Below are positions 1,770 through 63,760 of a stretch of DNA of 64,000 bases, piece after piece. Position 1 is the stretch's first letter. The number at the start of each line of letters is the position of its first letter. The notes under the pieces were generated by a model, which saw only the letters and a program-made list of their open reading frames with translations, was not told the origin of the DNA and did no database searches. This stretch comes from Eledone cirrhosa (taxonomy: Eukaryota), in the NCBI GenBank assembly GCA_964016885.1, contig OZ024741.1:295554001-295618000 (forward strand). The letters run 5' to 3'. The position numbers were made by a program, and so were the translations under genes.

Positions 1770-2194
1770 TACAAAGATCGGAATTAAGAGTATTCCGCAG
1801 TTCACTGTAATAATAATAATAGCATTAGCTCTCAAAGAAGAATAGATAATTTCCTTCTGAACTCAAATGCAAGTATATATTACACAAAGAGAAGTGTGTT
1901 ACACAGTGAGATGTGTGTAAGGAATTATTACAAGTGAGTTTACCGTTACTGTATAGGGAACAAGTTAGCAATTAAATAGAAAAAAAACTAAGTCAGAATC
2001 AAATCTCTGGATTAGAGTTTTAAATTACAAACCTTATAACTATATTTTGCTGATACGAATCTCGCTTCGTTTCACCACTTATATGTGAAGTGTATCAGGT
2101 CACAGGATCCTCAGTCAGCAAATGCGAACACTTGTAATAATTCCTTACACACATCTCCCTGTGTAACACACTTTTCTTTGTGTAATATATACTT
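1770..2194 (-). mobile_element. Non-autonomous PLE-like cassette with hammerhead and inverted duplication
   Basis: About 66-bp inverted repeats at 1871-1936 and 2129-2194 enclose an HHR; the element ends in (TA)n. Confidence 0.6.
2046..2122 (-). ncRNA. Type I hammerhead ribozyme
   Basis: Minus strand: tttgctga-CTGAGGA-tcc...ggt-GAAAC-gaa gcgaga ttc-GTA-tcagcaaa; 8-bp stem I, 5-bp stem III, intact core. Confidence 0.85.
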
Positions 2195-2395
2195 ATATAT
2201 ATATACTTCATTTTTGTATTTGTTTTGCATGGCTTTTTTTATCTGAAAACGTGTGTGACAATAAACAACTAAACACCCATCCAGTTATTAAACTAACCAA
2301 CTGGGAGTTTATAATAAATTGAAGTAAAATTAAACAGGTGCATGTGTTTTCATTGGCAGCATGACCCTCCCAAAGTATATATATACATATATATC

Positions 2396-2901
2396 GGAGT
2401 AGGCAGACCCAGAAAAACCTGGGACGACTTGATAAATTCCGACCTCACACACTTACACCTCTCCAAGACAATGTCACTGGACCAAGATCTTTGGCGTTAC
2501 ACAGTAATACAGAAGACCCGCCTTGCCTAAGTACAAAGCAAAACCTACAGTCAGTAGACACCTCTAACAAAAATACACCCCCGCCCCATCCACACCACCC
2601 CTTTCGATGTAAAGTTATGTTGGTACCACAACATCCAGGCCGAAACAAGTGAGGTTGTGTAGGTGTCACGAAAAAAAAACACACAGTCCACGCTGTAATG
2701 TGGCCGTGTAGGCAACACGGTAAAAACCTCCCAGTCCACACTGTAAACGTGGTTGGTGTTAGGAAGGGCATCCAGCCGTAGAAAACCTGCCAGACAGTCC
2801 TATGCGAGCAAGACAACCAATCTTGCCTCAAGTGGGAAAACTCCCGTCCAAACCCATGCAAGCGTGGAAGATGAACGTTAAACGATGATGATGATGATGA
2901 T
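2396..2901 (+). mobile_element. RTE-type LINE 3' fragment
   Basis: GVGRPRKTWDDLINSDL C-terminal peptide, 3'UTR related to the young RTE copies, (GAT)n tail. Confidence 0.75.
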
Positions 2902-3129
2902 ACCAAGTGTTACTATAGTTACAATAAGGTAACATCAATTGAATAAGCTGAGATAGTCCCTATAAACTCAATAATGCGAGAGATGAATTAATTCCTCAAT
3001 CAGAGTGAACACATTAAGTTATTTGAGTGAAACACCTTGAACAATATATAGACCGTGTGTATGCAACTATAGTATATAGCATCAACAACAACGAATACCA
3101 AAGGAAAAAGAATTTCTTATTTCGTATGA

Positions 3130-59996: not shown

Positions 59997-60655
59997 AAGA
60001 CAGGAAGACGATACTTAGGTTCGTGGTAACGTTCCCTTGCAAAGAACGGGAAAAAACGAATATAATACGTCATTATTTGGAGCGGTGAAAAACAATTACA
60101 CGCAAAGACAGAACCACGTTTATGGTATAAAAGAAGTCGTAGACTAATATTCTCTAAGGTGGTTCATAGAGACGTTCTCTGGCAATGAACGAAAAAAACG
60201 AAGATAATACGTCATATGTGGAGCGTGGAGAACAATTGCACGTAAACACAAAACCACGTAAATGGTATCATGATCATCATCATTCTTCGACTACTGTCGA
60301 GATGATGGATCTCACTCTCATGCCCCAGAATTCCCTGTCCCCCATATAGTGTGGTTCCCTGAAATGGTATAACTGAAGTCGTAGACTAAAATTCTAACTA
60401 GGAAACCGAATGATTCTCGGCTTCAGAGTTAAGAATAAAGTAAATAAAATACAGAGGTAATTGAAATTAAATAAATGCATACTCGCGTCCATACACGTAC
60501 ATACACAAGCATAGGCGAAAACACTCGCCATAGGTATACAAATACACGCACATATAAATGTGTGTGTGTGCGTGTATACAAATAATTAAATAAACGTATA
60601 TAAATAAATAAATACGTATATAACAAACGCACACACATACCTACATGTAAATACC
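59997..60655 (-). repeat. Inverted partial pLTR of the adjacent PLE
   Basis: Reverse complement of about 62982-63540, interrupted by a 93-bp insertion. Confidence 0.9.
60269..60361 (-). mobile_element. Extremely 5'-truncated (GAT)n-tailed LINE insertion with 9-bp TSD
   Basis: aaatggtat at 60260-60268 and 60362-60370; single copy at the empty site near 63268. Confidence 0.8.
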
Positions 60656-63600
60656 CGTACCAAGCAGGAAAACATACCTAAAACTCCTAATACAGAAAGC
60701 AGACGCGTTCATTAAAAGGTTACGTTGGCGTGCCTTTTATTTCGATAATCAGCGAAAAGCAGACAACAAACAGGATAAATTTGGGTTTAAAACTTATAAT
60801 AACCATCCGTGTAATCCAGCATTGTTACCCTTCGAAAATGATCTCTTGGAACTCATACGGAGTATCAAATTTCGGAATAGGAGCAATTCCTTCCAGCAGG
60901 ACCTGAAGAATAAAATTCGTTCTATTAAGGATTCTAATGCCGTGCACGTCCATTCCGACAAAACTGGCAACCTATATCAAGTGGAGCGCAGTACTTACCA
61001 TCAACTATTACATAATGCTGTAACTAAGGATTACCGTAAAACTAATCGGTGCGTCATTAATGAAATCAACGATGCTGGGTTTAAAATCACCTCTGATCTC
61101 AACATGCAGGACCGGACCGAACCTCTGGACCCTATTTCTTCCCACTTTACCCACTTTACCCAATTTTCTGAACAACCCCTCTATTCGGCTTATTAACCCT
61201 ACGAAGTCCGATTTAGGTAGACTTAGTAAAAGGATTCTTGATAGAATTATACCTGAAATTAGAAGTTTGGCCCCTCTTGCACTGTGGAACAATTCTTTCG
61301 CGGTGATTGATTGGTTCAACGGCATATGCAACAAGGAACATTACCACTTCTCCTTAGAGCTATCAATTTCGCTAAATCACTCACAGTGATTAAGGATTTC
61401 GAAATTGATGTCATCCTCAATGCTCGTAAGTCGGTGATTAATTTCGACGACTCTATTTGGATTAAAAAATCTAATAGTACCCCCATTCGACGTGAGTATG
61501 GGCGCCAGCGATTCTGCGGAGGTTACTGATCTTATCGGCCTTTTCCTTCTTTTCTCTATCAAGGACGAATTCCCCAACGTGGGCGGTGGTTTGTACCGTT
61601 TGACCATGACTAAGTGCGGCCCACGTGCTTGCGACAGGTTCAGAAAAGAACTCACAGCCTTCTTTAAAGGCTTCAACCTCTCTATACAGGTTGAGGCCAA
61701 TCTCTCGGTCGTTAATTGCCTCGACGTTACCCTCAATTTATCGAATGGCTTGTATTACCCGTATAGAAAGCCGAATGATACGCTTAATTACATAAGTAAG
61801 CATTCTAACCATCCTGCCAGCATAACCAGGAACCTGGTAAGAAACGTTTCTTTGAGGCTTTCCCGTCTATCTACTAACGAGCATATTTTCAACGACCATT
61901 CCACATATTACAATGAAGCTCTTGCTCAGAGTGGATTTGTCGATAAGGTAGCATATACAGAGTACGAGAATAGACCTAGAAGAAATAGATCCCGACGCAT
62001 TATATGGTATAACCCACCATATATGGAGGTGGCCACACCATTAGCTAAGATCTTTCTATCCCTTATTACGAAGCATTTTCCCCCTACACATAAATATAGT
62101 AACATTTTTAATAGAAATACTATTAAAATTTCTTACTCTACGACTCCTAACCTTGCACATAACATCACCGCTTCAAACTTAGCTAAACTACCTAGCCGTA
62201 GGAACACGTGCAACCCTGTAGTTAGTACTAACTGTAATTGTAGGAATCGGGTTGATTGCCCCCTATCCGGGAAATGCCTCTCTAGTAACATTGTCTACAA
62301 ATGTAAGGTTGAAACACCCACGTCCCGTAGGGCCTACATAGTGTTAACCGCCAATAGATTCAAGCAGCGTCTTTAGATGCATATCCATTCTTTTCGTTAC
62401 CCTCTAAGAAGGAATATGACGTCACTTTCAGCTTATATCTGGAGTCTAAAAGACAACCACACCCAATATAAGTTACACTGGGAGATCCTAGCTAGGGCTA
62501 GATCGTATAACGGAAATAAAAGATCATGTCACCTCTGCGCCGCTGAGGCCCTGGAAATACTCTACACCACAGACCACATCTTAAACAAAAAATCTGAGGC
62601 AATTTCGGCTTGTAAACATAAATTGCACAAAACTTTCCTGTATTACAGCCCCACATTATACCCTAACGGATAGTACGATCTATACGCGGATATTTTACGT
62701 CTTGATGTGGTAGCTAAGTATATGTTATCTTTATACCATTACTTATTTGCATAGGTAAGTATATATTACCTGTATGTTTTGTGAAGGTACGTATACTTTC
62801 TCGTACGTATATTTGATTGTATATGTTATGGCGTATATTTTATATATTCTGGTACATATGCTTTTGGTTATGTGTATACTTGAGTTTTGCGTCTGTGTGA
62901 GTATGCGGGTTGAGTACGTATGTAGGGTGTGTGTATATGTGTACTTCGTGTTTTGGTTGACGTACGTCTCCGAACATATGTGTATTTACATGTAGGTATG
63001 TGTGTGCGCTTGTTATATACGTATTTATTTAATTATATACGTTTATTTAATTATTTGTATACACGCACACACACACATTTATATGTGCGTGTATTTGTAT
63101 ACCTATGGCGAGTGTTTTCGCCTATGCTTGTGTATGTACGTGTATGGATGCGTGTATGCATATTTATTTAATTTCAATTACCTCTGTATTTTATTTACTT
63201 TATTCTTAACTCTGAAGCCGAGAATCATTCTGTTTCCTAGTTAGAATTTTAGTCTACGACTTCAGTTATACCATTTACGTGGTTTTGTGTTTGCGTGCAA
63301 TTGTTCTCCACGCTCCAGATATGACGTATTATCTTCGTTTTTTTTCGTTCATTGCCAGAGAACGTCTCTATGAACCACTTAATAGAATATTAGTCCACGA
63401 CTTCTTTTATACCATAAACGTGGTTTTGTCTTTGCTTGTAATTGTTTTTCACCGCTCTAAATAATGACGTATTATATTCGTTTTTTCCCGTTCTTTGCCA
63501 GGGAACGTTTCCACGAACCAGAGTATCGTCTTCCTGTCTTCCTCCGGTTGCAACGTTTTTTGAAATATTCACTTCTGCGTTCACAGATTGACTTTGTTAG

Positions 63601-63760
63601 TTTCAGAAGATCCCGTTAAGGGTGAAAGCAGCGATTCTTTGCTTAAACTTTAATCTGTTATTTTAATAAATATTTGCTCTACGGTTCTTATATATTTGAT
63701 ATATATTTATCCTTATCGAGCCCTCTTTGGATTTTCGTCTTCAAATTTATTATTATTACT
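60656..63760 (+). mobile_element. Near-full-length decayed Penelope-like element (Naiad-like RT plus GIY-YIG)
   Basis: FIKRLRWRAFYF, SDKTGNLY, RLINPTKSDLG, MGASDSAEV, LDVTLNL..YRKPND, SNHP, IIWYNPPY, CNC..CPLSGKC, IVYKC..YI, CHLC; frameshifts, DD motif deleted, internal TAG at 62374. Confidence 0.92.
63599..63649 (+). ncRNA. Hammerhead motif in the PLE pLTR (core variant CAGAAGA)
   Basis: agttt-CAGAAGA-tccc gttaa gggt-GAAA-gca gcgattctt tgc-TT-aaact. Confidence 0.7.

What the first reader, a model, noticed from the sequence alone, without database searches (positions are those of the whole stretch)
2046..63649. Shared U·U pair at the base of stem II in six unrelated hammerhead families
Seen: the base after CTGANGA and the base before GAAA are both T at 2046 (tcc..ggt), 4353 (tagct..agctt), 39497/58715 (tttc..gaat), 46410 (tcc..ggt), 56617 (tcctg..caggt) and 63599 (tccc..gggt). 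Known: the canonical HHR has a purine-pyrimidine pair (usually G10.1-C11.1) there. Both HHRs attached to Naiad-like ORFs have U·U, while the Neptune-like one (32791) does not. Inferred: a clade-specific core variant that standard HHR descriptors would miss, and a marker linking orphan cassettes to Naiad-type partners.
Basis: partly seen in the sequence, partly recalled or inferred. Interest (0 to 1): 0.75.

Follow-up and report, generated by a model that had tools for sequence, protein, structure and literature searches.

The report
U·U hammerheads of Hydra-clade Penelope elements
The odd U·U pair in these hammerhead RNA motifs is real and fixed in several families with tens of thousands of copies, but it is a published variant that likely still cuts, and the elements carrying it here are Hydra-type jumping genes, not Naiads.

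Summary
The U10.1·U11.1 closure is present at all cited sites, although two cores are not CUGANGA (56622 CUAAUGA, 63604 CAGAAGA). It is the consensus of four families (96-98 of 100 listed copies in three; 27 of 28 in the fourth) but only a subfamily state in two.

The Naiad reading fails. Both attached ORFs have a C-terminal endonuclease and RWR, DKT and CxCX5C motifs, so they are Hydra-clade Penelope-like elements. Published Naiad cores that I could read by eye close with G-C.

The variant is in print: Perreault 2011; Cervera 2014 supplement, whose descriptor allows it; the axolotl HHR_Amex2 retrozyme, which cleaves (2020); and 14 of 25 Hydra families in Craig 2021 File S2.

Added here: in 43 metagenomic Hydra elements 17 are U·U. 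The state clusters on the protein tree (5 changes against 14.3 shuffled) but switches at least four times, so it is a weak marker. One orphan family links to a Hydra ORF; another is retrozyme-like with no partner found.

Side lead: a Hydra family of about 26,000 copies is fixed for a U4A core change. Earlier scan notes on this genome also filed such hammerheads under Hydra.

The parts
2046..2122 (-). Type I hammerhead, long stem II, U2107·U2074, GUA site; non-autonomous inverted cassette (about 1871-2194)
   Evidence: family mixed U·U/A·C/A·G; no ORF upstream in 20 loci
4353..4395 (-). Type I hammerhead with palindromic CUAG stem III, U4382·U4369; retrozyme-like family in tandems of about 420-500 nt
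   Evidence: no ORF of its own and no Hydra hairpin in 20 loci
9235..9290 (-). Decayed copy of the 39540 family (GAAA read as AAAA)
32065..32295 (+). C-terminal remnant of a Neptune-like GIY-YIG endonuclease (H...H motif; CX4CxxC linker in relative L211)
32791..32826 (+). Minimal hammerhead, extra A then G32803·U32814 (family G-C); control without U·U
35700..35810 (.). Inverted pair of 39540-family hammerheads (35750 -, 35758 +), both U·U
39496..39546 (-). Type I hammerhead, U39533·U39522; cassette homologous to the 3' UTR of a Hydra-clade element (L013)
45916..46224 (+). C-terminal GIY-YIG remnant of a Hydra-clade PLE (family A)
46410..46449 (+). Type I hammerhead of family A, U46422·U46432, palindromic CAAUUG stem III, GUU site; Hydra-type hairpin about 70 nt downstream
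56617..56665 (+). Decayed hammerhead (G5A core), U56629·U56646, at an inverted junction; old low-copy family
58715..58763 (+). 39540-family hammerhead, U58727·U58738
58952..59007 (-).
60651..62670 (+). Broken Hydra-clade PLE ORF (family B): RLRWR, SDKTG, CNCRNRVDC linker, C-terminal GIY-YIG; frameshifts and stops
63599..63649 (+). Type I hammerhead of family B with U4A core (CAGAAGA), U63611·U63623, CUU site; Hydra-type hairpin downstream

Best explanation
These are type I hammerhead motifs at the 3' ends of Hydra-clade Penelope-like retrotransposons and their non-autonomous derivatives, in which a U·U mismatch takes the place of the G10.1-C11.1 pair and likely still allows slower self-cleavage. 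Shown: U·U sits in the same register as G-C in relatives, because the next pair covaries (U-A 10, C-G 7 among 17 U·U motifs); it is inherited along Hydra lineages and has switched several times. Inferred: the mismatch stacks under the A9·G12 sheared pair as a wobble, and the RNA is cut out of tandem or read-through transcripts, mostly as dimers through palindromic stem III. Inferred: C11.1 sits in a CpG with G12, so C-to-U decay gives G·U or A-U intermediates, and U·U is the tolerated end state that a master copy then amplifies. It is a tolerated, weakly lineage-informative variant, not a Naiad marker.
For: Hydra motifs in both ORFs and their full-length relatives. L013 carries a Hydra ORF directly upstream of a 39540-type hammerhead with a homologous 3' UTR. 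The three genome families form one branch (SH-aLRT 98, 3 rows). Metagenomic Hydra elements: 17 U·U, 17 G-C, 5 A-U, 4 G·U of 43 with a motif, out of 77 loci; U at 11.1 in 26 of 43. On the tree of 42 rows U·U needs 5 changes, shuffled mean 14.3, 0 of 500 as low, at least 4 forced. Covariation of pair 10.2-11.2. Literature: U·U is the best-tolerated mispair and occurs naturally (PMC3088659 section 8). Axolotl HHR_Amex2 with U·U cleaves 22% in 1 h as a monomer and much better as a dimer (PMC7229834 section 15). 14 of 25 Hydra families are U·U (PMC8557442 File S2). In the G-C control family 9 of 100 copies show C11.1 to T.
Against: No cleavage was measured for any motif here. The 4389 and 2114 families showed no ORF of their own and no strict Hydra hairpin in 20 loci each, and 56617 had the hairpin in only 2 of 20, so the Hydra link is unproven for half of the six. 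Four other Hydra families in this genome showed no hammerhead of their own within 1.5 kb of the ORF end. Isolated motifs do not fold into the hammerhead as the minimum-energy structure. The 63604 and 56622 cores carry changes expected to cripple cleavage. The tree is a quick one without an outgroup, built on rows aligned to one query; L013 fills 27% of columns, and the L235 hammerhead may belong to a neighbouring element. The CpG route is inference; DNA methylation was not examined.
Confidence: 0.85

Rival explanations
1. U·U is an adaptive rate-tuning switch: elements are selected for a weaker stem II so that monomers do not cleave too early, or so that cleavage needs a dimer or the element's protein.
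For: It recurs on separate Hydra branches (at least 4 changes) and in an axolotl retrozyme. U·U far outnumbers other mismatches in metagenomic Hydra elements (17 against 0). In the 2114 family T at 10.1 always goes with T at 11.1 (49 of 49).
Against: No difference in stem II length or stability between U·U and other motifs (p = 0.32 and 0.70). Sister subfamilies amplify with A·C, A·G or C·C as well. Simple tolerance (Ruffner 1990 as cited) explains the bias.
Confidence: 0.25
2. In these families the hammerhead is no longer catalytic. It is a relic or a protein-binding structure, so the core and the 10.1-11.1 pair drift freely.
For: Family B spread to about 26,000 copies with U4A, against 70 copies with U4 and an intact stem I. 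Single mutants in the CUGA turn show low activity (PMC9901934 passage). Many mismatch types occur in the 2114 and 56617 families.
Against: In metagenomic Hydra elements the motifs found show compensatory changes in all three stems over deep protein divergence, although the scan required a near-intact core. A natural U·U hammerhead cleaves.
Confidence: 0.15
3. One reading: U·U is a Naiad-specific, undescribed core variant that links orphans to Naiad partners.
For: Craig 2021 says some Naiads have cores that do not fit stem/loop descriptors.
Against: Both ORFs are Hydra-type. Naiad consensus cores read by eye close G-C, often in rearranged order. U·U is already in print.
Confidence: 0.02

Closest known systems
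Hammerheads of Hydra-clade PLEs (Craig et al. 2021, PMC8557442, File S2; e.g. Penelope-1_HM, Hydra-1_aJap, Hydra-1_cRog)
   Same: Type I motif 3' of a C-terminal-EN ORF with RWK/DKT/CxCX5C; short stem I; palindromic stem III; cugaNgaU...Ugaa closure in 14 of 25 families; (TA)n insertion context.
   Different: The table books the two U's under 'core', and the passages I read do not discuss them. Its octopus entry Hydra-1_Obim closes A-U after an extra G. The families here are not in that table, and family B has U4A.
Axolotl non-LTR retrozyme hammerhead HHR_Amex2 (Cervera & de la Pena 2020, PMC7229834)
   Same: U·U mismatch at the base of helix II, about 60,000 copies, tandem repeats; matches the 4389 family in layout.
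   Different: Vertebrate host and a 350-nt unit; activity was measured there, not here.
Natural U10.1-U11.1 hammerhead variant (Perreault et al. 2011, PMC3088659)
   Same: Same position and mismatch, described as surprising but as the best-tolerated mispair.
   Different: A rare variant in that survey; here it is fixed in several high-copy retroelement families. I did not see the figure naming its source.
Naiad PLEs (Craig et al. 2021)
   Same: GIY-YIG PLEs with (TA)n preference, present in cephalopods.
   Different: N-terminal endonuclease, CxC and DKA motifs, no canonical hammerhead; their core-like motifs close G-C by eye.

Membership tests
Hydra-clade PLE | C-terminal GIY-YIG endonuclease after RT | tested here: met
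   ORFs end in the EN domain just before the 3' UTR; read from motifs, as Pfam gave no hit
Hydra-clade PLE | RWK motif | tested here: met
   RLRWR in window 60651-61193 and in L041; K is R here
Hydra-clade PLE | DKG changed to DKT | tested here: met
   SDKTG in family B; SHKTN in one family A copy
Hydra-clade PLE | CxCX5C linker | tested here: met
   CNCRNRVDC; CSCRKPEAC in L034
Hydra-clade PLE | CCHH motif of the EN absent | tested here: met
   By eye the second H(F) box seen in the Neptune-like remnant is replaced by T.LS..(I/V)W
Hydra-clade PLE | Placement in a tree with the published reference proteins | not testable with these tools
   Supplement sequences could be read but not entered; compared by eye with Hydra-1_Obim only
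Naiad PLE | N-terminal EN, CxC domain, DKA motif, RT at the C-terminus | tested here: not met
Type I hammerhead ribozyme | CUGANGA and GAAA cores, stems I-III, NUH site | tested here: met
   Met for 2114, 4389, 39540, 46415, 58720; not met for 56622 (G5A) and 63604 (U4A)
Type I hammerhead ribozyme | R10.1-Y11.1 pair | tested here: not met
   U·U; a published natural exception
Type I hammerhead ribozyme | Self-cleavage | not testable with these tools
   No assay; no RNA run listed
Non-LTR retrozyme (4389 family) | Non-coding tandem repeat of a few hundred nt with one type I hammerhead per unit | tested here: met
   Spacing about 420-500 nt; no PLE ORF of its own in 20 loci
Non-LTR retrozyme (4389 family) | Circular RNA intermediate | not testable with these tools
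   No RNA data

The most novel reading that the evidence does not exclude
The Hydra-clade family at 60651-63649 reached about 26,000 copies with a doubly altered hammerhead (U4A in the CUGA turn plus U10.1·U11.1). Either this is an undescribed natural core that still cleaves, perhaps helped by the element's protein, or it shows that a Penelope-like element can spread massively without hammerhead cleavage. In that case the repeated G-C/U·U switches across Hydra lineages record tuning or loss of the ribozyme's role.
Probability: 0.3. Interest if true: 0.55.

Novelty: already known. Interest (0 to 1): 0.22.

Why it matters
The U·U closure itself is published and tested, so it changes little. What remains useful is practical. 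Hammerhead surveys that demand a 10.1-11.1 pair would miss roughly 30% of the motifs in this genome (18 of 59 in a 600-kb sample) and about 40% of those in Hydra-clade elements. The state also helps, weakly, to assign orphan cassettes. The U4A family gives a direct way to test the open question of whether PLE hammerheads are needed for retrotransposition.

Tried and rejected
Rfam: the 150 listed of 278 window hits were all miRNA models on microsatellites. Ten loci gave 0 hits at gathering score, including G-C controls L211 and L226, so Rfam's miss is not due to U·U.

Pfam gave no RT or EN hit for the Hydra ORFs or the Neptune-like remnant. A DNA search of the own genome with the 63604 region returned nothing, not even itself (common words are skipped), so patterns were used instead.

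My first descriptor missed the 2114 and 39540 motifs and was relaxed. The Hydra hit upstream of L176 (56617 family) and the one in L135 (4389 family) belong to neighbouring elements and were rejected.

Four further Hydra families gave no hammerhead of their own within 1.5 kb, which is uninformative because their 3' UTRs are long. There is no link between U·U and stem II length or energy. The difference in stem III length (p = 0.0004) follows lineage and was not taken as independent.

The alternative register 'extra U plus a normal pair' does not work for these stems. No RNA holder was listed; the laid runs are of unknown kind and say nothing on expression.

A recalled 2017 RNA Biology paper on PLE hammerhead dimers is not held. 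One supplementary file of PMC4209133 was not searched, and figures were not visible. The search 'hammerhead' + 'U4A' found 0 papers; that is one search of an open library and weak evidence of absence.
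Full report
Setting. The window lies in a 3.0-Gb animal genome, rich in (TA)n and in LINE and Penelope-like (PLE) remnants. The closeness by eye to Hydra-1_Obim suggests a cephalopod; this is inference.

Observation. U follows the core and U precedes GAAA at all cited places. Five are complete type I hammerheads (2114, 4389, 39540, 46415, 58720). Two have altered cores: CTAATGA at 56622 and CAGAAGA at 63604. Under independence six such families would have probability 7e-7, which overstates the case because the families are related and were picked by eye. 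A fairer control: my descriptor left both positions free and found 59 motifs in 60 evenly spaced 10-kb stretches, 18 of them U·U, against 1.4 hits per shuffle, none U·U. Other closures were common: A-U 19 (11 in one tandem array), G-C 6, and U-A, A·C, C·A, A·G.

Family consensus. Genome-wide patterns left 10.1 and 11.1 as N, and I hand-counted the first 100 rows of each. The 39540 family has 98 U·U (28,037 matches), the 4389 family 96 (27,518) and the 63604 family 96 (26,371); reversed controls were 0. The 46415 family has 28 of 29 in 30 loci, the window copy included. The 2114 family is mixed: 49 U·U, 22 A·C, 11 A·G, 6 C·C, 6 G-C, 5 A-U, 1 A·A, with a few rows from other families. So is 56617, with about 21 U·U and 21 C·C of 86. 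The control 32795 family has an extra A then G-C in 76, G·U in 9, U·U in 0 of 100; a relative carries a Neptune-like linker and endonuclease.

The partners are Hydra, not Naiad. Craig et al. 2021 (PMC8557442; passages, section 11, supplement parts 1-2 and search passages seen) define Hydra by a C-terminal EN, RWK, DKT, CxCX5C and no CCHH, and Naiad by an N-terminal EN and no canonical hammerhead. The ORF at 60651-62670 has RLRWR, SDKTG, CNCRNRVDC and a terminal EN. Fuller copies of the 45916 element show the same features. Locus L013 has a third Hydra ORF directly upstream of a 39540-type hammerhead, with a 3' UTR that aligns to the window cassette; 1 of 30 loci had such an ORF. It also occurs in 13 of 30, 11 of 26 and 5 of 20 loci of the 39540, 46415 and 63604 families, 2 of 20 for 56617, and 0 of 20 for 2114, 4389 and 32795. 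The 4389 family forms tandems of about 420-500 nt without an ORF of its own, like a non-LTR retrozyme. In the published Naiad consensus file I saw most, not all, CTGANGA hits. The core-like 3' motifs I could parse by eye close with G-C, often in rearranged order.

Phylogenetic test. An alignment of 51 Hydra-type proteins retrieved 77 metagenome loci. Forty-three had a detectable hammerhead within 1.2 kb; 5 lacked the C-terminus and 29 gave none, many from short flanks. Closures were 17 U·U, 17 G-C, 5 A-U and 4 G·U, with no other mismatch. After dropping 4 near-duplicates (all G-C) and adding three genome families, U·U needed 5 changes on a quick 42-row tree, against 14.3 for shuffles (0 of 500 as low), with at least 4 forced by well-supported branches. 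The three genome families form one branch. So the state is inherited but labile; without a root, gain cannot be told from loss. Within U·U motifs the next pair covaries (U-A 10, C-G 7), which fixes the register. The window itself has a Hydra-type hammerhead with G·U (58999).

What is known. [quoted passage not shown] Cervera 2014 (PMC4209133; parts 1-2 of 4 and passages of supplement file 2) gives G10.1-C11.1 as the PLE consensus. It also shows a U·U Hydra magnipapillata row and a descriptor with optional extra N10 and N11. Cervera 2020 (PMC7229834; section 15 and passages) describes about 60,000 axolotl motifs with a U·U at the base of helix II, cleaving 22% in 1 h as monomers and far better as dimers. 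Craig 2021 File S2 lists 14 of 25 Hydra families with this closure, by my count. A 2026 preprint (10.64898/2026.07.22.740005; parts 1-2 of 5) derives retrozymes from PLEs. Eckert 2023 (PMC10085705; passages) was checked for the term U-U and had none. My emulation of the 2014 descriptor with a longer stem III found four U·U sites when N11 was allowed and none when it was not. The literal two-base version found none, because stem III is longer here. I found no paper that states the Hydra association in words.

Mechanism. Shown: position, register, inheritance and repeated switching. From established knowledge (recalled): pair 10.1-11.1 stacks on the A9·G12 sheared pair, and G10.1 helps bind a metal ion. 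Inferred: U·U keeps the stack with some loss of rate; palindromic stems III point to dimer cleavage of tandem transcripts; CpG decay of C11.1 supplies the route. Not shown: any cleavage here.

Side lead. Family B has A at position 4 in 94 of 100 listed copies, and four of the six CTGA rows are overlaps at inverted junctions. Only 70 genome copies have U4 with an intact stem I. No variant of 5% or more appears at that base or at either U in 16,265 contigs of run X1. Roberts 2023 (PMC9901934; passages) found low activity for single mutants in the CUGA turn.

Verdict. Real, not chance, mislabelled as Naiad, and already in print. Interest is low, with one testable side lead.

Noticed in passing
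window 63604-63610; G000 genome-wide: A Hydra family of about 26,000 copies is fixed for CAGAAGA (U4A); only 70 copies have CTGA with stem I intact.
   Followed up: partly
G000:C1:4182311-4182361 and L176: Inverted junctions of family B are repeatedly centred on core position 4 (TCAGA/TCTGA overlap), a quasi-palindrome that may favour fold-back and could be linked to the U4A change.
   Followed up: no
window 46487-46508, 39454-39474 (-), 63676-63722: A conserved hairpin RCTC...GAGY lies 65-100 nt 3' of Hydra hammerheads; 22 of 29 metagenomic loci carry it. It is a better Hydra marker than U·U.
   Followed up: partly
PMC8557442 File S5: Several Naiad consensus 3' ends carry hammerhead cores in rearranged order with G-C closure; earlier scan notes report the same.
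   Followed up: no
   Followed up: partly
L181-L200; L161-L180: Subfamilies of the 2114 and 56617 hammerheads are amplified with A·C, A·G or C·C at 10.1-11.1.
   Followed up: partly
L090, L105, L111: U3-A8 hammerhead variants with G-C closure, 4 hits in 600 kb.
   Followed up: no
L080:300-3400: A 310-nt tandem retrozyme-like array with 11 hammerheads closing A-U.
   Followed up: no
L298-L327: Four more Hydra families in this genome have long microsatellite-rich 3' UTRs and no hammerhead within 1.5 kb; one has open frames of 758 aa.
   Followed up: partly
window 40220-41497, 49580-50863, 57439-58638: Three copies of a LINE-like 3' fragment, about 99% identical, so a recent expansion.
   Followed up: no
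window 20765-24988, 36450-37430, 16470-17063: A large short-period tandem repeat, a 32/64-nt minisatellite, and a PIF1-like helicase (Helitron-like, label recalled) fragment.
   Followed up: no
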